40,751 nucleotides of DNA. Source: Escherichia phage HK022. Positions 5,546 to 18,971 of this stretch are shown in pieces; position 1 is the first letter of the stretch, and every line of letters starts with the position of its first letter. The stretch is from the sequence record NC_002166.1; one strand, written 5' to 3'. The position numbers and the translations under genes are program-made. The notes under the pieces are model-generated. The model saw nothing but the letters and a program-made list of their open reading frames with translations, searched no databases and was not told where the DNA came from.

Positions 5546-5781
5546 TGGAACCGGGACGATTCAGGCACCGGGTAAAAATTCTCACCTTCACGACTTCGCG
5601 CGATCCATCTGGTCAGCCGGTTGAATCGTGGACAGGTGGCAACCCGGTCCCGGCTGAGGTAAAGAGGATCAGCGGCAGAGAGCAGCTTTCAGGCGGCGCG
5701 GAAACGGCGCAGGCAACGATTCGCGTCTGGATGCGCGCAACGGAGCGAGTGGATAAAAAAGTGGGCAAAAATAGCTTATGA
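5545..5781 (+). CDS. short head-tail adaptor homolog (possibly a truncated paralog)
   Basis: 78 aa; N-terminal 70 residues align with the 110-aa adaptor at 5977..6309 (shared RHR..P..G....W.....V.AEV...S.RE pattern) but the conserved C-terminal segment is missing; ATG overlaps upstream stop. Confidence 0.5.
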   Translation: MEPGRFRHRVKILTFTTSRDPSGQPVESWTGGNPVPAEVKRISGREQLSGGAETAQATIRVWMRATERVDKKVGKNSL

Positions 5782-5975
5782 ACGAGCAACTGGTAAACGA
5801 ACTGATAGCAGTGATACGGGAACAAATCACAGCGCAGAGTGAGCAGACGGAAGCGATAAGCCGTCTGGCTGAATCAAATATGGCGCTTTGCGATGTCATT
5901 ATCCAGTCGCTGGCTGGTGAACTAGATGAAACTGCAGAGCAACAAACCTATCTGAGCGGTAAACCCAGGGGGTAA
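5778..5975 (+). CDS. hypothetical protein (65 aa, acidic, helical)
   Basis: ATG overlaps the stop of the upstream ORF (ATGA); lies between the two adaptor homologs. Confidence 0.4.
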   Translation: MNEQLVNELIAVIREQITAQSEQTEAISRLAESNMALCDVIIQSLAGELDETAEQQTYLSGKPRG

Positions 5976-5976
5976 C

Positions 5977-6309
5977 ATGCAGGCCGGGAAATTGCGCCAC
6001 AGGATTACTCTGCAGGAGCCAGTAAAAGTGCAGAACCCGACAACGGGAGCCGTAATTAATACCTGGCGAGATGTTGCGACTGTCCGGGCCGAAGTTTCAC
6101 CATTGTCAGCGCGTGAATTTATTGCTGCGCAGGCTTCTCAGGGTGAAATAACCACCCGTATTGTTATTCGCTACCGTGCCGGAGTTACCAGAAAACATCG
6201 CATCTTGTTTCGTGGTGCTGTGTATAACATCCATGGTGTTCTGCCCGATCCAAAAAGCGGACGTGAATACCTGACGCTTCCCTGTTCTGAGGGTGTTAAT
6301 GATGGCTGA
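5977..6309 (+). CDS. head-tail adaptor / head closure protein
   Basis: 110-aa ORF with GGGGGT RBS; full-length member of the head-tail joining family. Confidence 0.7.
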   Translation: MQAGKLRHRITLQEPVKVQNPTTGAVINTWRDVATVRAEVSPLSAREFIAAQASQGEITTRIVIRYRAGVTRKHRILFRGAVYNIHGVLPDPKSGREYLTLPCSEGVNDG

Positions 6310-6841
6310 TAGTGTTGAGGTAAGTCTTACCGGGCTTGAATCACTTCTTGGGAAAATGGAGGCCGTATCAGAAGTCACCCGTAATAAAGCCGGTCGGTTT
6401 GCATTGCGTAAGGCGGCAAACATTATAAGGGATCGGGCCAGAAGCAACGCGTCACGAGTTGATGATCCTCTGACTAAAGAAGCAATCCACAAAAATATCG
6501 TCGCCAGCTTCAGCAGCAAGCAATTCCGCAGGACAGGTGATCTGGCATTCCGTGTCGGGGTAATGGGCGGTGCCAGGCAGTATGCAAATACAAAGGCAAA
6601 CGTCAGAAAAGGCAGAGCGGGTAAAACATACAAAACCTCAGGAGATAAAGGCAATCCAGGAGGAGATACCTGGTACTGGCGTTTTCTTGAGTTTGGTACT
6701 GAGCACACATCAGCGCGGCCTATCCTCCGACCTGCAATGAACGGCGTAGATAATGACGTGATTAATGTTTTTTCTACGGAAATGGGAAAGGCTATTGATC
6801 GCGCTATCAGGCTGGCCATGAAGAAAGGAACCACTGCATGA
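6299..6841 (+). CDS. HK97 gp10-like neck/tail-completion protein
   Basis: 180 aa; ATG at 6299 or 6302 after GAGGGTG; start overlaps upstream stop. Confidence 0.65.
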   Translation: MMADSVEVSLTGLESLLGKMEAVSEVTRNKAGRFALRKAANIIRDRARSNASRVDDPLTKEAIHKNIVASFSSKQFRRTGDLAFRVGVMGGARQYANTKANVRKGRAGKTYKTSGDKGNPGGDTWYWRFLEFGTEHTSARPILRPAMNGVDNDVINVFSTEMGKAIDRAIRLAMKKGTTA

Positions 6842-11236: not shown

Positions 11237-11988
11237 GTCTTAACGCAGATTTTCAGAAGCTCGAACCTGGCGATGTGGTCAGGCTTTTCGAAGTGGATGG
11301 CACGGCATTTGGTACAGGTGATGTGCTGCGATTTCACAGCTACAGTCTTGCGCACTCTGAAGCCGAAATTATCGCTGCTGGCGGTGATGAAAATAAACTG
11401 CCAGCAAAATCTATCTGGTGGCAGGGTGAGGAGTATAAAGCGTGGCCATGCCAGATTGAGGGGATCGAAGCTTCAACCTCGGGAAGTAGTGCCCAGCCGA
11501 AACTTTCGGTTGCTAACCTCGACAGTTCGATCACCGCGCTTTGCCTGGCTTACGACGATATGCTGCAGGCGAAGGTGACGATACATGACACCCTTGGTAA
11601 GTATCTCGATGCGAGAAACTTCACCGGAGGCAATCCGACAGCCGATCCGACCCAGGAGAAGCTGAAGGTTTTCTACATCGATGCAAAGAGCAGTGAAACC
11701 AATGAAGTTGTTGAGTTCACACTATCCAGCCCTATGGATCTGCAGGGGCTGATGATACCTACCCGCCAGCTTCATTCTCTGTGCACATGGTGCATCCGGA
11801 ACAAGTACCGAACCGGCGACGGCTGCGACTATGCCGGTACGCGCTATTTCGACAAAAACAACAACCAGGTAAGCGATCCGTCACTGGATGAATGCAACGG
11901 AACGCTGACGGCCTGCAAACTTCGGTTCGGTGAAAACAACGAACTCTCGTTTGGTGGGTTCCCGGGTACGTCGCTGATCAGGAGTTGA
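11233..11988 (+). CDS. L: minor tail protein L
   Basis: 251 aa; C-terminal cysteine cluster (C..C....C...C) as in lambda gpL. Confidence 0.85.
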   Translation: MSLNADFQKLEPGDVVRLFEVDGTAFGTGDVLRFHSYSLAHSEAEIIAAGGDENKLPAKSIWWQGEEYKAWPCQIEGIEASTSGSSAQPKLSVANLDSSITALCLAYDDMLQAKVTIHDTLGKYLDARNFTGGNPTADPTQEKLKVFYIDAKSSETNEVVEFTLSSPMDLQGLMIPTRQLHSLCTWCIRNKYRTGDGCDYAGTRYFDKNNNQVSDPSLDECNGTLTACKLRFGENNELSFGGFPGTSLIRS

Positions 11989-11989
11989 T

Positions 11990-12700
11990 ATGCGTCAGAA
12001 AACCATCGATGCGATTATGGCGCATGCTGCAGCTGAATATCCTCGTGAGTGCTGCGGTGTGGTGGCACAGAAGAGCCGGGTAGAGAAATATTTTCCATGT
12101 CGTAACCTCGCTACCGAGCCGACAGAACATTTTCACCTGTCGCCAGAAGACTATGCAGCTGCTGAGGACTGGGGTACGGTGATCGCCATCGTTCACAGTC
12201 ACCCTGACGCCACAACGCAGCCGAGCGAACTGGATAAAGCGCAATGCGACGCAACGCTTTTACCCTGGCATATTGTGAGCTGGCCGGATGGGGATTTACG
12301 CACCATCCAGCCGCGCGGAGAACTGCCACTGCTGGAGCGTCCGTTTGTGCTTGGACACTTCGACTGCTGGGGGCTGGTAATGAGCTATTTCCGGCAAACG
12401 CATGGTATCGAGCTCCACGATTACCGGGTGGATTATCCCTGGTGGGAAAACGCCTATCCGGACAATTTTTATCAGGATTGCTGGTATGAATGCGGATTCA
12501 GGGAGTTTGACGGCCCGCCTCAGGAAGGGGACCTCGTCATCATGCAGGTGCAGGCCGATAAGTGGAATCATGCCGGGATTTTACTGGAGGGTAACATGCT
12601 GCTGCACCACCTGTACGGACATCTGAGCCAGCGCGTGCCGTATGGGGGCTACTGGCAGGAAAGGACGATGAAGATTCTTAGACATCAGAATTTTATTTAA
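11990..12700 (+). CDS. K: tail assembly protein K (JAMM/MPN + NlpC/P60 domains)
   Basis: 236 aa; JAMM motif HSHPDATTQPSELD; downstream Cys in GHFDCWGLV and His in NHAGILL consistent with NlpC/P60. Confidence 0.85.
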   Translation: MRQKTIDAIMAHAAAEYPRECCGVVAQKSRVEKYFPCRNLATEPTEHFHLSPEDYAAAEDWGTVIAIVHSHPDATTQPSELDKAQCDATLLPWHIVSWPDGDLRTIQPRGELPLLERPFVLGHFDCWGLVMSYFRQTHGIELHDYRVDYPWWENAYPDNFYQDCWYECGFREFDGPPQEGDLVIMQVQADKWNHAGILLEGNMLLHHLYGHLSQRVPYGGYWQERTMKILRHQNFI

Positions 12701-12747
12701 CAAACTGTCACTGATACTATCGTGTAGCACACAGCAAGGAGAACGAT

Positions 12748-12972
12748 ATGTATACAGTTGGGTTTGGTTGGATCTTCGTCGGTATTTTTATTGGGTTAAT
12801 TCTCTGGTTTTTCATCAACCGCGCCAGCGTCAGAGCGAACAGGCAGGTTGAATTACTTGAGTCTATCGACCAGAAATTATCAAAAATAGTAGATCCAAAC
12901 TTCGAGGCAAATAACAAAGACCAGTCGAAAGAAAACTACCTTGAAGAAGCAAGGAAAAAAGCTGGGCTTTGA
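12748..12972 (+). CDS. small membrane protein (moron between K and I)
   Basis: 74 aa; AAGGAG RBS 6 nt upstream; one predicted TM helix (VGFGWIFVGIFIGLILWFFI) then charged tail; followed by its own terminator; lower GC than flanking tail genes. Confidence 0.5.
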   Translation: MYTVGFGWIFVGIFIGLILWFFINRASVRANRQVELLESIDQKLSKIVDPNFEANNKDQSKENYLEEARKKAGL

Positions 12973-12986
12973 GAGCGTAAATTAAT

Positions 12987-13010
12987 AAACCACCTACGGG
13001 TGGTTTTTTT
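12987..13010 (+). terminator. rho-independent terminator
   Basis: AAACCACC-tacg-GGTGGTTT hairpin plus T-run. Confidence 0.65.
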
Positions 13011-13021
13011 ATGGGGGCAGC

Positions 13022-13630
13022 ATGCAAGAGGTAATGACAAGAATTGAGCTAAGTGGCGTGCTAGCTAAGACATATGGAAGGGTTCATCACCGTCTGGTTC
13101 GCACTACTGCTGAAGCCATTAATGCACTCGCGAAAACCATCAATGGATTCGAGAAATTCTTAAACACAAGCAAAGCCCGAGGGCTGACGTATGCCGTTTA
13201 TAGAGATAAAAAGAATATTGGCGTTGATGATCTCGGCTTTCCCGTCACCGGCGAAGTGATCCGGATTGTCCCTGTAGTAATAGGGAGTAAAAAGGCTGGT
13301 CTTTTGCAGACGATCTTGGGGGCCGTGCTTATTACTGCTGCTGTGTTGACTGGACCCGGCGGTATTGGCGCTGCTTTCGCTGCTGGTGGATTGACGGGGT
13401 TTGCTGCTGCCACTGGTGCCTCGTTGGTCCTCGGTGGGGTTATTCAGCTGCTTTCACCGCAGCCATCAGGCATAGCCAGTAAACAAAGCGCAGATAACCG
13501 TGCATCGTATGCGTTTGGCGGGGTAACCAACACTGCAGCGCAAGGCTACCCGGTGCCTCTGCTTTATGGTAAGCGTCGAATCGGCGGAGCGATTATTTCT
13601 GCCGGAATTTATGTCGAAGATCAGCAGTGA
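13022..13630 (+). CDS. I: tail assembly protein I
   Basis: 202 aa; hydrophobic Gly/Ala-rich central segment; lambda gpI-like position between K and J. Confidence 0.8.
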   Translation: MQEVMTRIELSGVLAKTYGRVHHRLVRTTAEAINALAKTINGFEKFLNTSKARGLTYAVYRDKKNIGVDDLGFPVTGEVIRIVPVVIGSKKAGLLQTILGAVLITAAVLTGPGGIGAAFAAGGLTGFAAATGASLVLGGVIQLLSPQPSGIASKQSADNRASYAFGGVTNTAAQGYPVPLLYGKRRIGGAIISAGIYVEDQQ

Positions 13631-13714
13631 TACATAATGTGGGGAGCTAATATGAATAACGGGTACTTTGGTTTAAGTAGGGATAAAAAGCAGGTTGTGT
13701 TTTATGCGCCACTA

Positions 13715-13746
13715 TTCCAATTAAAGAAAGGCCGCATCTGCGGCCT
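13715..13746 (-). terminator. rho-independent terminator (minus strand)
   Basis: GGCCGC-agat-GCGGCC hairpin followed on the minus strand by TTTCTTTAATT; lies just 3' of the minus-strand ORF. Confidence 0.5.
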
Positions 13747-13750
13747 GGGG

Positions 13751-13972
13751 CTACTTATTCATGAATTGCTTCAGTTCAGTGGCAAGTTTTTCAAAAGGTG
13801 GATGGCTATACTGAGTAAGCTCTATAAGTAACTGGTTTTTATCTGAGTCAGGCAATCTGGCAAACAACAATCCAAATGCTAGCTTAAGAGCGGTAACCTC
13901 ATTTGCCACATCGGATACATCATTGCAATTAGTGGTTAGTTTTAGCCCGTCAATATGTCGAATCTGATTCAC
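13751..13972 (-). CDS. hypothetical protein (73 aa), opposite-strand moron between I and J
   Basis: GTG start at 13972 with AGGA 6 nt upstream; helical, mildly acidic protein; convergent with flanking tail genes. Confidence 0.45.
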   Translation of the reverse strand: MNQIRHIDGLKLTTNCNDVSDVANEVTALKLAFGLLFARLPDSDKNQLLIELTQYSHPPFEKLATELKQFMNK

Positions 13973-14101
13973 ATATATTCCTTATCCAGAGGTAATCAGC
14001 CATCCCTCCGTACCAGAGTGCGCCAGTGTCCCACCACTGGCGGGCTGAGTTATCACATTAACCAGGGTTTCCGATAAGCAACACCCTGATATTCAAACAG
14101 T

Positions 14102-14126
14102 AGCCACCTTCGGGTGGCTTTTTTTA
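14102..14126 (+). terminator. rho-independent terminator-like hairpin before J
   Basis: AGCCACC-ttcg-GGTGGCT plus T7; near-identical to the hairpin at 12987..13010. Confidence 0.55.
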
Positions 14127-14136
14127 TGGGCGCAAT

Positions 14137-17100
14137 ATGGCTACAGATAAAGTGTTAAAGGGCCGCAAGGGCGGCAGCTCCAGTTCCCGAACTCCTACCG
14201 AACAGCCTGATGATCTGCAATCTGTAGCGAAGGCAAAAATCCTCGTTGCGCTTGGGGAAGGTGAGTTTGCAGGGCAGCTCACCGGCAAAGATATCTACCT
14301 GGACGGAACAGCGCTGGAGAATGCTGACGGCTCCCAAAACTTCAGCGGGGTAACGTGGGAGTTTCGCGCGGGAACTCAGGCGCAAAAATATATTCAGGGT
14401 ATTCCCGGTACCGAAAACGAGATCAGCGTAGGAACTGAGGTATCAAGTGCCACAGCCTGGACGCGCACGTTTACCAATACGCAGCTTTCAGCAGTTCGCC
14501 TGCGTCTTAAATGGCCCTCGCTTTTCAAACAGGAGGACGACGGCGATCTGGTGGGTTACTCGGTCAATTATGCAATTGACCTGCAGACGGACGGCGGCGC
14601 ATGGCAGACGGTACTCAATACCAGCGTGACCGGAAAAACGACGTCTGGTTATGAGCGCAGCCATCGTATTGATTTACCGCAGGCTGGCAGCACTTGGACA
14701 ATCCGCCTGCGTAAGATTACCTCTGACGCCAACAGCGCGAAGATCGGCGACACGATGACGCTGCAGAGCTTCACTGAGGTGATTGACGCCAAGTTACGAT
14801 ATCCAAACACAGCGCTACTCTACATCGAATTCGATTCAAGTCAGTTTAACGGCTCTATCCCGCAGATCTCCTGCGAGCCCCGCGGCCGTGTTATCCGCGT
14901 TCCAGATACCTACGACCCTGAAACCCGCACTTATAGCGGTACATGGACCGGTGCGTTTAAGTGGGCATGGACGGATAACCCTGCGTGGATTTTTTACGAT
15001 CTGGTTGTTTCTGACCGGTTCGGCCTCGGGCACCGTTTGACCGCTGCGAATATTGATAAATGGACGCTTTATCAGGTTGCCCAGTATTGTGATCAGATGG
15101 TACCAGACGGCAAAGGGGGCAACGGTACCGAACCACGTTATACCTGCAACGTGTACATCCAGGACCGAAACGACGCTTATACAGTCCTGCGTGATTTTGC
15201 GGCCATATTCCGTGGCATGACGTACTGGGGAGGCGATCAGATCGTTGCTCTGGCCGATATGCCCCGAGATGTTGATTACAGCTACACGCGCGCCAACGTT
15301 GTTGGCGGTCGCTTCACCTATTCAAGCAGCACCACGAAAACCCGCTACACCACAGCGCTGGTTTCATGGTCAGACCCGGGTAACGCTTATGCCGACGCGA
15401 TGGAGCCGGTATTTGAGCAGGCGCTGGTAGCGCGATACGGCTTCAATCAGCTGGAAATGACAGCCATCGGCTGCACCAGGCAGTCAGAAGCGAACCGAAA
15501 GGGGCGCTGGGGCATTCTCACCAACAACAAGGATCGCGTTGTTTCGTTTGATGTCGGGCTGGACGGAAACATTCCGCAGCCTGGCTACATCATCGCCGTG
15601 GCAGACGAGCTGCTTTCCGGAAAGGTTATGGGCGGCCGCATCAGCGCCGTTAACGGTCGCGTTATCAAACTTGACCGCGTAGCTGATGCAGCACCAGGTG
15701 ATCGCCTTATTCTCAACCTTCCCTCCGGAGCGTCGCAGAGCAGGACCATTCAGGCCGTGAACGGGGAATCAGTCACAGTCACCACGGCATACAGTGAGAC
15801 GCCACAGGCCGAAGCTGTTTGGGTGGTTGAATCTGACGAGCTCTACGCGCAGCAGTATCGAGTTGTCAGCGTTTCCGATAACAATGATGGCACTTTCTCG
15901 ATTACCGGCGCATGGCACGACCCGGATAAATATGCCCGTATCGATACCGGAGCCATCATTGACCAACGGCCGGTGAGCGTGATCCCGCCGGGCAACCAGT
16001 CGCCGCCTGCGAATATCGTGATCAGCTCGTTTTCCGTGGTTCAGCAAAATATCAGCGTCGAAACAATGCGCGTGAGCTGGTACCAGGCGCAGAACGCTAT
16101 CGCCTATGAAGCACAATGGCGCCGCAACGACGGGAACTGGGTTAACGTGCCGCGCACCTCCACCACGTCATTCGACGTCCCGGGGATTTATGCCGGGCGC
16201 TACCTGGTGCGGGTGCGCGCAATCAATGCCGCAGAAATTTCATCCGGATGGGGCTATTCAGAAGAGAAAACGCTGACGGGTAAAGTGGGCAATCCACCGA
16301 AGCCGGTTGGCTTTATCGCCTCTGAAAACGTGGTGTTCGGTATCGAGCTGAACTGGGGATTCCCGGCGAATACCGACGACACGCTGAAGACGGAAATTCA
16401 GTACAGCCTGACCGGTACTGAAGACGATGCCATGCTGCTGGCCGATGTGCCTTACCCGCAGCGCAAATATCAGCAGATGGGCCTTAAGGCTGGGCAGATT
16501 TTCTGGTACCGCGCGCAGCTGGTTGACCGCAGCGGTAACGAGTCAGGTTATACCGGCTGGGTTCGTGGGCAGGCCAGTATCGATGTTTCTGACATCACAG
16601 ATGTGATCCTTGAAGACATCAAAGGGTCTGAGACGTTCAAAGACCTGATCGAGAACGCTGTGGACAGCAATGAAAAAATTGCTGGCATGGCTGACGACAT
16701 CAAACAGGCCAACGATGAACTTGAACTCCAGGCGCAGGAAATCGCAAAAAACGCGCAGGACATCGGGCAGGTTCAGACCAGCGTTAATGAGCTTTCTAGC
16801 ACGGTCGGTGATGTGTCGTCTTCTCTCTCAGATCTTGAGCAGACTGTTGCGACTGCTGATACCGCACTGGGCCAGCGAATCGACAGCATCAGCGTATCTA
16901 TGGACGGCATGACGGGCGGGGTGAAGAACTCTGCTATCGCAATTATCCAGAACGGGCTGGCACAAGTGGCTACGCGTAAATCGTTGTCAGCTTCGGTCGC
17001 AGGGAACAGTGCGCAGCTGGATCGTATTGATGAGGTAATCGTTAACGAGAAGGAGGCAACGGCGCGTTCTCTGCTGAGCCTGCAGACGGATGTCAACGGC

Positions 17101-18737: not shown

Positions 18738-18971
18738 ATGAAAAGGCTAATTATCTGCATAGCGGGCGCTTTAATGCTGTCTGGTTGCGCTGGTGTACTT
18801 GAGAAACAGAAACCGATTTGCAGCGGCACGGCATATATGGGTGGCCATGAGAATACCGTTATGATTTACGCCGTTCGAAAGCAAAACAACCAGACGCAAT
18901 ACCGGGCCGGATATCCCTTTAACTGGCGCTGGGTAAGTGCGAACACATTCACAAGCACGACATGTAAATAA
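18738..18971 (+). CDS. cor: small lipoprotein, Cor-like (candidate superinfection exclusion)
   Basis: 77 aa; signal peptide with lipobox LSGC (Cys17); AT-rich upstream region; followed by a terminator; same position as cor in phi80/N15-type phages. Confidence 0.6.
   Translation: MKRLIICIAGALMLSGCAGVLEKQKPICSGTAYMGGHENTVMIYAVRKQNNQTQYRAGYPFNWRWVSANTFTSTTCK

What the first reader, a model, noticed from the sequence alone, without database searches (positions are those of the whole stretch)
12701..13021. Small membrane-protein moron inserted between tail genes K and I
K and I are adjacent in lambda, but here a 74-aa protein with one TM helix, a strong AAGGAG RBS, lower GC content and its own hairpin-T7 terminator sits between them. 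A membrane protein expressed from a prophage tail region is a candidate lysogenic conversion or superinfection-exclusion factor.
Basis: seen in the sequence. Interest (0 to 1): 0.55.

Follow-up and report, generated by a model that had tools for sequence, protein, structure and literature searches.

The report
YebO-like membrane-protein moron in phage tail genes
A small, well-conserved membrane-protein gene with its own promoter and terminator sits between two tail genes of an HK97-like temperate phage; it is a relative of the known HK97 exclusion protein gp15, so it probably helps a lysogen keep out other phages, though this has not been tested.

Summary
A 74-aa ORF (12748-12972, +) fills the gap between tail genes K and I. 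It has an AAGGAG ribosome-binding site, one N-terminal transmembrane helix, GC of 0.40 against 0.51-0.54 in the flanking genes, and a hairpin-T7 terminator.

The window is a mosaic HK97-like temperate phage. The ORF is "gene 20", a slot left unannotated in the HK97 reference, where I found an amber codon at position 33. The protein belongs to Pfam YebO (PF13974) and to the same PHROG as HK97 gp15, the founding moron and a proven superinfection-exclusion protein (43% identity, with bridging intermediates).

Diverged homologues (46-76% identity) from Serratia, Pantoea, Klebsiella and metagenome contigs almost always lie in siphophage tail modules. They occupy three slots: K-I, H-M and GT-H. Most carry a conserved extended -10 promoter, and dN/dS is about 0.16.

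In HK140 and mEpX2 the K-I slot holds a different cargo, a lipoprotein.

The best reading is a prophage-expressed inner-membrane protein of the YebO/gp15 family that blocks incoming phage DNA entry. The gene, its family and its moron status are shown here. Its expression from the prophage and its function are inferred. It is a new member of a known kind, of modest interest.

The parts
11990..12700 (+). Tail gene K (upstream flank; JAB + NlpC/P60 domains)
   Evidence: Pfam PF14464 2e-21 and PF00877 4.6e-22. It is 99% identical to HK140 K as far as 12678, where homology breaks.
12679..12987 (+). Exchangeable cargo segment of the K-I slot. It comprises the last 7 codons of K, the promoter, the RBS, the ORF and a spacer.
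   Evidence: BLASTN against HK140 and mEpX2 loses homology at 12678 and regains it at 12988. Those phages carry a 113-aa lipoprotein gene here instead. GC is 0.388.
12712..12720 (+). Candidate extended -10 promoter, TGATACTAT (TG at 12712-13, -10 hexamer TACTAT at 12715-20)
   Evidence: TG-n-TA-nn-AT is invariant across four diverged K-I loci while the neighbouring bases vary. A TGnTAnnnT motif lies 34-42 nt before the ATG in about 19 of 24 unique upstream regions, across all three tail slots. E. coli chromosomal yebO has TGGTAGAAT at -34. The generic -35/-10 scan found nothing. The transcription start has not been mapped.
12736..12741 (+). Ribosome-binding site AAGGAG
   Evidence: Read directly from the sequence. 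AGGAG/GAG is conserved in homologous loci.
12748..12972 (+). CDS for the 74-aa YebO/gp15-family protein (equivalent to HK97 'gene 20')
   Evidence: ORF list; Pfam PF13974 1.8e-12; PHROG 5031 6.9e-41; 38 homologous protein clusters; median dN/dS 0.16.
12760..12816 (+). Coding region for the transmembrane helix (residues 5-23, GFGWIFVGIFIGLILWFFI)
   Evidence: Hydropathy and charge bias. The AF2 model has a helix over residues 3-48, with pLDDT 92 for residues 11-20. The sequence varies but stays hydrophobic across homologues.
12817..12870 (+). Coding region for the invariant juxtamembrane motif NRASVRANRQVELLESID (residues 24-41)
   Evidence: Invariant or near-invariant columns in alignments A1 and A5. 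Regional pN/pS is 0.10. The motif is 73% identical to E. coli K-12 YebO over 30 aa.
12934..12969 (+). Coding region for the C-terminal motif NYLEEARKKAGL (residues 63-74), specific to the phage-borne subfamily
   Evidence: Conserved in homologues from all three tail slots but absent from E. coli YebO and HK97 gp15. Regional pN/pS is 0.19.
12987..13010 (+). Intrinsic-terminator hairpin plus T7 run
   Evidence: Terminator scan. Free energy -13.6 kcal/mol, z = -3.2. Annotated as a putative terminator in the HK97 record. mEpX2 has an equivalent hairpin with a different stem sequence (CCCGC/GCGGG).
13013..13630 (+). GGGGG ribosome-binding site and tail gene I (downstream flank)
   Evidence: Pfam Lambda_tail_I 2e-06. 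The junction 'TTTTTTTATGG..ATG' is conserved in front of the next tail gene in every slot.

Best explanation
The interval holds a genuine moron cassette: its own extended -10 promoter, a strong ribosome-binding site, a 74-codon gene and an intrinsic terminator. It sits in the K-I slot of the tail operon of an HK97-like temperate phage.

The product is a single-pass inner-membrane protein of the YebO/gp15 family. The predicted topology is N-terminus out, with about 50 residues of helical C-terminal tail in the cytoplasm.

The most likely working model has three parts.

1. In a lysogen the silent late operon is not transcribed. The cassette's own promoter makes a short transcript that stops at the hairpin before gene I. 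During lytic growth, Q-modified polymerase reads through.
2. The protein inserts into the inner membrane.
3. Like its relative HK97 gp15, it blocks the step at which an incoming siphophage's tape-measure protein and DNA cross the inner membrane. This gives superinfection exclusion that is independent of repressor immunity.

What is shown here: the gene is real, it is under purifying selection, it belongs to the family, the cassette has the anatomy described, the slot accepts alternative cargo, and the cassette recurs in three tail slots. What is inferred: promoter activity in lysogens, the topology, and the exclusion function and its target.
For: - Family: Pfam YebO above the curated cut-off. 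It falls in the same PHROG (5031) as HK97 gp15.
- Direct similarity to gp15: BLASTP gives 43% identity over 44 aa, E = 5e-9.
- A bridging member (L049/L059, Klebsiella phages) is 45% identical to gp15 (E = 6e-18) and 49% identical to this ORF (E = 1e-22). It carries this ORF's C-terminal motif.
- gp15 is an experimentally shown, prophage-expressed inner-membrane exclusion protein that blocks genome injection, and it is YebO-like (PMC3594210; PMC10883804; PMC12939059).
- Context: 42 of 43 related loci lie in siphophage tail modules. Of these, 29 are in K-I, 7 in H-M, 4 in GT-H (gp15's slot) and 2 in a divergent H...J module.
- Promoter: a motif of the form TGnTAnnnT travels with the gene in all three slots.
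- Terminator.
- Selection: median dN/dS is 0.16. Window against L030 gives 21 synonymous and 8 non-synonymous differences. The juxtamembrane motif (pN/pS 0.10) and the C-terminal motif (0.19) are the most constrained.
- Membrane anchor and positive-inside bias; helical AF2 model.
- The alternative cargo in the same slot is a lipoprotein, another envelope protein.
Against: - No expression or phenotype data exist for this gene. I found none in the searchable literature.
- The ORF is closer to chromosomal YebO in its conserved core (73% over 30 aa) than to gp15. Over-expression or deletion of YebO had no effect on HK97 plating (PMC3594210). Family membership therefore does not guarantee exclusion activity.
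- The C-terminal motif is absent from gp15, so the partner may differ.
- An identical 74-aa protein rides with at least four tape-measure variants: HK97-type at 100, 81, 69 and about 42% identity, and the HK022-type. It is therefore not tuned to the resident phage's tape measure, unlike what gp15's tape-measure dependence might suggest.
- Several phages carry both gp15 and this gene. That argues for non-redundant roles.
- HK97 itself tolerates an amber mutation in the gene.
- No PADLOC defence model matches.
- The generic sigma-70 scan found no promoter.
Confidence: 0.5

Rival explanations
1. It is a lysogenic-conversion factor that acts on host physiology, not on phages. Under this reading it is a captured copy of the chromosomal yebO gene. 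It does what YebO does, or interferes with it, at the cytoplasmic face of the inner membrane, for example in envelope or PhoPQ-linked stress responses.
For: - The TM-proximal core is 73% identical to E. coli K-12 YebO.
- The same extended -10 lies at the same distance upstream of chromosomal yebO. This suggests that gene and promoter were captured together.
- yebO is co-transcribed with mgrB, the PhoQ inhibitor, and its function is unknown (PMC5861431).
- The invariant juxtamembrane motif is shared by the phage and chromosomal branches. This points to a conserved host partner.
- There is no co-variation with the resident tape measure.
Against: - The phage branch has its own conserved C-terminal motif and lacks YebO's C-terminus.
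- The only characterised phage-borne family member is an exclusion protein (PMC3594210).
- The gene is almost exclusively linked to siphophage tail modules.
- YebO's function is unknown, so this rival makes no specific prediction yet.
Confidence: 0.2
2. It is an accessory late-gene product that works during lytic growth. It would be made by read-through of the tail operon. Possible roles are stopping progeny or sibling phages from injecting into the already infected cell, or adjusting inner-membrane events before lysis.
For: - It lies inside the late operon on the same strand, so it must be transcribed late as well.
- The strong RBS would give translation from the late polycistronic RNA.
- The hairpin and downstream RBS junction are arranged so that expression of gene I is preserved.
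Against: - A conserved private promoter and a terminator are unnecessary for a purely late function.
- The gene is dispensable for phage growth. It is absent from HK140, mEpX2 and lambda, and it is amber-truncated in the plaque-forming HK97 reference.
- gp15 is expressed from the prophage (PMC3594210).
Confidence: 0.1
3. It is a decaying or non-functional ORF, a leftover of recombination at a hairpin-flanked junction, with no selected function.
For: - The HK97 reference carries a nonsense codon in it.
- Only 7 of 5426 complete E. coli genomes hold it.
- An antisense 'shadow' ORF is also open in many copies.
Against: - The ORF is intact in 24 of 26 deposited E. coli phage records. The other two are the two copies of the HK97 sequence. 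It is also intact in every diverged homologue examined.
- dN/dS is about 0.16, with invariant motifs at saturated synonymous divergence.
- It has been independently retained in three slots and several genera.
- The antisense frame is broken in several homologues.
Confidence: 0.03

Closest known systems
HK97 gp15, the founding 'moron' product and a superinfection-exclusion protein (Cumby et al. 2012, J Bacteriol 194:5012; reviewed in PMC3594210)
   Same: - It is a small (62 aa) single-pass membrane protein of the YebO family in PHROG 5031.
- It is encoded by a promoter-ORF-terminator cassette inserted in the tail operon of HK97-like phages.
- It is 43% identical over the TM-proximal region, and bridging intermediates exist.
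   Different: - It occupies a different slot (GT-H, not K-I).
- gp15 lacks the YLEEARKKAGL C-terminus and has diverged in the NRASVRAN core (LRFSTRAN).
- gp15 is physically linked to HK97-type tape measures, whereas this gene rides with several types.
- gp15's function is demonstrated. This gene's is not.
E. coli YebO (b1825), Pfam PF13974, a protein of unknown function in the mgrB-yebO transcript
   Same: - It shares the TM helix followed by LILWFFINRAS.R.N.Q.ELLE (73% identity over 30 aa).
- It has the same predicted topology.
- It has the same extended -10 at -34.
   Different: - YebO is 95 aa with an unrelated acidic C-terminus.
- It is chromosomal, not in a prophage.
- Over-expression or deletion did not affect HK97 (PMC3594210).
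- The phage branch has its own C-terminal motif.
Other prophage exclusion proteins that act at the cell envelope: Cor lipoprotein (HK022, phi80, N15), P22 SieA, TP-J34 Ltp
   Same: - They are prophage-expressed envelope proteins that stop infection at or after adsorption.
- Cor is itself encoded in this window's tail region, at 18738-18971.
- The alternative K-I cargo in HK140 and mEpX2 is also a lipoprotein.
   Different: - There is no sequence relationship.
- Cor acts on the outer-membrane receptor FhuA.
- SieA is a larger multi-pass protein that acts on podophage ejection proteins (PMC10883804).

Membership tests
Phage moron (Juhala et al. 2000, as summarised in PMC3594210) | Extra DNA between two genes that are adjacent in related phages | tested here: met
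   K and I overlap in lambda. HK140 and mEpX2 share the flanks at 81-99% identity but have different cargo, with break-points at 12678 and 12988.
Phage moron (Juhala et al. 2000, as summarised in PMC3594210) | Base composition differs from the surrounding genes | tested here: met
   Cassette GC is 0.388 and ORF GC 0.404, against K 0.540 and I 0.511. The interval is in the lowest 2.5% of the structural region.
Phage moron (Juhala et al. 2000, as summarised in PMC3594210) | Own promoter | tested here: inconclusive
   A conserved extended -10 (TGATACTAT, 12712-12720) is retained at -34 to -42 in about 19 of 24 diverged upstream regions, in three slots. There is no good -35, the generic scan was negative, and no transcript data exist.
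Phage moron (Juhala et al. 2000, as summarised in PMC3594210) | Own factor-independent terminator | tested here: met
   Hairpin plus T7 at 12987-13010, free energy -13.6 kcal/mol, z = -3.2. An equivalent hairpin follows YebO-like genes in the other slots. A similar hairpin also exists with other cargo or with none.
Phage moron (Juhala et al. 2000, as summarised in PMC3594210) | Expressed from the repressed prophage | not testable with these tools
   This needs RNA-seq, 5'-RACE or a reporter in a lysogen.
YebO family (Pfam PF13974) | Profile match above the curated gathering score | tested here: met
   47.7 bits against a cut-off of 27, E = 1.8e-12. PGAP names the identical prophage gene 'YebO family protein'. 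All 38 homologue clusters carry PF13974.
YebO family (Pfam PF13974) | Small protein with one N-terminal TM helix followed by the N-R-A-S-x-R-x-N motif | tested here: met
   TM helix at residues 5-23 and NRASVRAN at residues 24-31. The pairwise match to E. coli YebO is 73% over 30 aa.
gp15-type superinfection-exclusion proteins | Sequence homology to HK97 gp15 | tested here: met
   BLASTP E = 5e-9, the same PHROG, and intermediates.
gp15-type superinfection-exclusion proteins | Inner-membrane localisation | not testable with these tools
   Only a prediction is available: hydropathy 2.36 over 19 residues, positive-inside bias, no signal peptidase or lipobox site, and a helical model.
gp15-type superinfection-exclusion proteins | Confers immunity-independent resistance by blocking phage DNA entry, with dependence on the tape measure and on PtsG | not testable with these tools
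   This requires phage challenge, DNA-entry assays, escape-mutant mapping and two-hybrid tests. The indirect evidence is mixed: the identical protein occurs with very different tape measures.
Catalogued anti-phage defence systems (PADLOC-DB 2.0) | Match to any defence-system profile | tested here: not met
   No hit at E <= 0.1 for this ORF or for gp15. gp15-type exclusion proteins are not in that catalogue, so this says little.

The most novel reading that the evidence does not exclude
YebO-like tail morons may be a modular family of inner-membrane 'entry blockers'. In this reading a constant juxtamembrane motif docks on a conserved host inner-membrane component, and the variable TM, linker and C-terminus set which phage entry route is closed. 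The K-I protein would then be a second exclusion function in HK97-like phages, not redundant with gp15, with a different target range. It would have escaped notice because the HK97 reference strain carries an amber mutation in it. As a corollary, chromosomal YebO could itself modulate the same inner-membrane component.
Probability: 0.25. Interest if true: 0.55.

Novelty: new member of a known kind. Interest (0 to 1): 0.38.

Why it matters
gp15 is the textbook moron and one of the few exclusion proteins known to act at the inner-membrane DNA-entry step of siphophages. This work shows three things about its family.

- HK97-like phages carry a second, better-conserved member of the family in another tail slot.
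- The family is a mobile promoter-gene-terminator cassette found in three tail slots across Escherichia, Enterobacter, Serratia, Pantoea and Klebsiella phages.
- The HK97 reference strain is a natural nonsense mutant for this second member.

Together these give a concrete, cheap experiment: repair or express the gene and challenge with a phage panel. That could widen what is known about how phage genomes cross the inner membrane and about the unknown function of YebO.

In practice it also corrects annotation. The gene is unannotated in the HK97 records, and the 'YebO' label is attached to the neighbouring gene K in phage ECP1.

Tried and rejected
- Generic sigma-70 promoter scan: nothing found in 11500-14500. 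The promoter case rests on comparative conservation instead.
- Rfam scan of 11500-14500 at E <= 1: no RNA family.
- PADLOC and NCBIfam profile scans: no hits.
- PDB sequence/profile search: only a meaningless TarG hit at E = 0.63.
- AF2 model: a long TM-plus-cytoplasmic helix and a second helix, mean pLDDT 69.9. I judged this too simple for a meaningful fold search, so none was run.
- Motif mimicry: I searched the window and related loci for copies of the juxtamembrane or C-terminal motif in tail proteins, to test for mimicry of the tape measure or another tail protein. None was found.
- Antisense ORF 12717-12917: rejected as a shadow frame, because it is broken in several homologues while the sense frame is always intact.
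- DNA-level search of 5426 E. coli genomes: it did not pick up chromosomal yebO, which is too diverged at the DNA level. It found only 7 prophage copies.
- Literature: searches for a functional study of this gene (HK97 gp20, YebO, mEp/HK phages) found none. The primary gp15 paper, tried by DOI and by PMC id, and HK022 RefSeq accession NC_002166.1 were not held.
- Co-variation with the resident tape measure: none found.

Full report
**1. What is in the sequence**

The interval 12701-13021 is exactly the gap between two tail genes. K lies at 11990-12700 (Prok-JAB + NlpC/P60) and I at 13022-13630 (Lambda_tail_I). The gap contains:

- one ORF, 12748-12972 on the + strand, 74 aa;
- AAGGAG at 12736-12741, 6 nt upstream of the ATG;
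- a terminator-like hairpin at 12987-13006 (core CCACC-TACG-GGTGG) running into seven T at 13004-13010. Its free energy is -13.6 kcal/mol, z = -3.2 against shuffles.

GC is 0.404 for the ORF, against 0.540 for K and 0.511 for I. The interval falls in the lowest 2.5% of equally sized windows in the structural half of the genome.

The protein has one strongly hydrophobic stretch, residues 5-23 (mean Kyte-Doolittle 2.36). No basic residues lie before it and three lie just after it. It has no lipobox. An AlphaFold2 model built from 28 homologues is a helix over residues 3-48 followed by a helix over 52-71. It is confident over the membrane part and weak after residue 50. In lambda, K and I overlap.

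**2. What genome this is**

The window is a mosaic HK97-like (Hendrixvirinae) temperate phage. No deposited phage covers more than 74% of its first 25 kb (mEpX2 98.1%, HK140 96.9%, mEp235 98.8%). Its tape measure is the 806-aa HK022 type, not the HK97 type.

The K-I interval is 99.3-99.8% identical to 26 records of E. coli HK97-family phages: HK633, HK75, HK97, HK446, HK544, HK106, HK542, mEp234, mEp235, mEp506, mEpX1 and ECP1. In the HK97 GenBank record, K is Gp19 and I is Gp21. The terminator is annotated, but no gene 20 CDS is given.

The reason is visible in the sequence. HK97 differs from the window by a single base in this ORF, CAG to TAG at codon 33, which truncates the protein just after the membrane helix. 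All other deposited phages have the intact ORF. Only 7 of 5426 complete E. coli genomes carry the cassette. In all 7 it is chromosomal and named 'YebO family protein' by PGAP, and the one I inspected lies in a prophage.

**3. Is it a real gene?**

Yes, on several grounds.

- It matches Pfam YebO (PF13974) at 47.7 bits against a cut-off of 27, and PHROG 5031 at E = 6.9e-41.
- A search of 5.8 billion proteins returned 38 clusters, all PF13974 and almost all 74-86 aa (two are shorter fragments). Identity goes down to 49%, and the named sources include Enterobacter, Serratia and Pantoea.
- An exhaustive profile search of 1.84 billion representatives found only 62 clusters at E <= 1e-3. About ten of them match end to end. 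The family is therefore small and confined.
- Across 18 distinct full-length coding sequences the frame is always open. Median Nei-Gojobori dN/dS is 0.16 over the 31 pairs whose dS is measurable. For example, window against L030 gives 21 synonymous and 8 non-synonymous differences.
- Constraint is concentrated in the juxtamembrane motif NRASVRANRQVELLESID (pN/pS 0.10) and the C-terminal motif YLEEARKKAGL (0.19). The membrane helix and the linker are freer (0.55).
- The antisense open frame is a shadow that is broken in several homologues.

**4. Is it a moron?**

*Break-points.* Comparison with HK140 and mEpX2, which share the flanking genes, shows homology ending at 12678 (22 nt inside K) and resuming at 12988 (the first base of the hairpin). 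Between these points those phages carry a different gene, a 113-aa predicted lipoprotein (PHROG 914). The K-I junction is thus a cargo slot with alternative fillings.

*Terminator.* The hairpin that follows the cargo is present in both versions but with a different stem sequence (CCACC/GGTGG against CCCGC/GCGGG). It is followed in each case by TTTTTTTATGG and the start of I. The same arrangement precedes J. In mEpX2 the I-J hairpin is there although the slot is empty. The terminator is therefore better described as part of the slot or cassette junction, and the G-run after it serves as the ribosome-binding site of the next tail gene. It is not a private possession of this ORF.

*Promoter.* A generic -35/-10 scan finds no promoter. 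Alignment of four diverged K-I loci shows that the only conserved non-coding positions besides the RBS spell TG-n-TA-nn-AT. In the window this is TGATACTAT at 12712-12720. A TGnTAnnnT motif sits 34-42 nt before the ATG in about 19 of 24 distinct upstream regions, including copies in the other tail slots. E. coli chromosomal yebO has TGGTAGAAT at -34. This is a phylogenetic footprint of an extended -10 promoter that travels with the gene. Activity has not been measured.

**5. Where the family lives**

I classified 43 related loci from viral and genome collections, with some contigs present in both:

| Position of the YebO-like gene | Loci |
|---|---|
| Between K and I | 29 |
| Between the tape measure H and M | 7 |
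| Between the G/T chaperone and H | 4 |
| Between H and J in a divergent module | 2 |
| Not placed | 1 |

Independent look-ups agree. Twenty Klebsiella phage records carry a 50%-identical copy. In the one I inspected it lies just upstream of the tape measure in a different tail architecture. In some Serratia and Pantoea loci a second small gene follows the YebO-like gene in the K-I slot.

**6. Relation to gp15 and YebO**

HK97 gp15 is the first element ever called a moron. It lies in the GT-H slot. According to the authors' review it is expressed from the prophage, inserts into the inner membrane and prevents genome injection by HK97 and HK75, independently of immunity and without blocking receptors. 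Exclusion is relieved by swapping in the HK022 tail region. gp15 resembles YebO in its N-terminal part, but YebO itself has no effect on HK97 (PMC3594210). Later summaries link it to the tape measure and PtsG (PMC12939059; PMC10883804).

The window's protein is 43% identical to gp15 over 44 residues (E = 5e-9) and falls in the same PHROG. It is 73% identical to E. coli YebO over the 30-residue core. gp15 is the more diverged of the two relative to YebO.

A Klebsiella-phage member in the GT-H slot bridges them. It is 45% identical to gp15 (E = 6e-18) and 49% identical to the window protein (E = 1e-22), with the YLEEARKKAGL ending.

HK97, HK75, HK633, HK446, HK544 and mEpX1 carry both genes. The window carries only the K-I copy. 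One review states that gp15 has no homologues in other phages (PMC6379469). The data here show otherwise.

**7. Mechanism**

The best-supported reading is a prophage-expressed, N-out/C-in inner-membrane protein that acts like gp15 at the DNA-entry step. I put this at about 0.5.

It rests on homology, on the cassette's autonomous anatomy, on the exclusive association with siphophage tail modules, and on the fact that the alternative cargo is also an envelope protein.

Several points count against equating it with gp15:

- It has a distinct conserved C-terminus.
- It co-occurs with gp15 in several phages.
- The identical 74-aa protein rides with tape measures that are 100, 81, 69 and about 42% identical to HK97's, and with the HK022 type. 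It is not matched to the resident tape measure, so it more plausibly addresses a host inner-membrane component.

The main rival (about 0.2) is a host-directed YebO-like activity. It is favoured by the closer similarity to YebO and the shared promoter architecture. It is weakened because YebO's role is unknown and the phage branch has its own C-terminus. A purely late-lytic role (about 0.1) does not explain a private promoter and terminator, nor the gene's dispensability. A dead ORF (about 0.03) is contradicted by the selection data.

**8. Novelty and value**

The ORF is already deposited many times as 'hypothetical protein' or 'YebO family protein'. HK97's tail morons and gp15's function are established. 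This is a new, uncharacterised member of a known kind.

What this analysis adds:

- the explicit gp15 relationship, with bridging members;
- the three-slot distribution;
- the travelling extended -10 promoter;
- the slot and terminator architecture;
- the alternative lipoprotein cargo;
- the amber mutation in the HK97 reference, which may explain why the gene was never studied.

A specialist would find it useful and not surprising.

Noticed in passing
window 13631-14102 (ORF 13751-13972 on the - strand; - strand terminator 13746-13729; + strand terminator 14102-14119): A second cargo slot, between I and J, is filled here by about 470 bp of low-GC DNA (0.43). It carries a reverse-strand 73-aa ORF with its own terminator. 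The ORF has conserved homologues in Enterobacteriaceae (69-97% identity) and matches PHROG 6806, of unknown function. The DNA has no megablast match in 50,697 phage records, and only 82 nt match in one E. coli genome. HK97 has different cargo (gp22/gp23) in this slot, and in mEpX2 the slot is empty.
   Followed up: partly
L001 (HK97 AF069529) 6695-6697, equivalent to window 12844-12846: The HK97 reference sequence has CAG to TAG (amber) at codon 33 of this ORF. It is the only difference from the window across the 225 nt. This explains why 'gene 20' is missing from the HK97 annotation although its terminator is annotated.
   Followed up: yes
L012 (mEpX2) 5682-6023 and L013 (HK140) 5775-6116: In the closest relatives of the window's tail region, the K-I slot holds a different gene: a 113-aa predicted lipoprotein (PHROG 914, unknown function). 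It is followed by an analogous hairpin-T7.
   Followed up: partly
window 13004-13021 and 14120-14136; L012 6047-6066 and 6709-6724: A hairpin, a T-run, 'ATGG' and then the start codon precede both I and J in all phages compared. In mEpX2 this holds even at the I-J junction, where there is no cargo. The hairpins look like fixed junction elements of the tail operon, possibly remnants or recombination joints.
   Followed up: partly
L014 (E. coli K-12) upstream of yebO, -34 from the ATG: Chromosomal yebO has an extended -10 (TGGTAGAAT) at the same distance from its start codon as the phage cassette. This suggests that promoter and gene were captured together.
   Followed up: partly
L002 (phage ECP1 KY979108) 1841-2551 and 2599-2823: There is an annotation slip in the ECP1 record. 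The 711-nt K gene is labelled 'YebO', while the real YebO-like ORF next to it is labelled 'hypothetical protein'.
   Followed up: no
window 18738-18971: A Cor exclusion lipoprotein gene is present, 99% identical to the ORF annotated 'Cor protein' in mEpX2. The phage therefore already carries one known receptor-level exclusion function in its tail region.
   Followed up: partly
L051, L052, L053 (IMG/VR contigs), match at about 6001: Longer relatives of 154 aa have the YebO-like TM and NRASVRAN core fused to an extra C-terminal domain of about 100 aa. Two lie between H and J in a divergent tail module. The context of the third could not be resolved.
   Followed up: no
L006 5278-5610 and L010 5222-5647: In Serratia and Pantoea prophages, a second small gene of unknown function (110 or 141 aa, no Pfam hit) follows the YebO-like gene within the K-I slot, making a two-gene cargo.
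   Followed up: no
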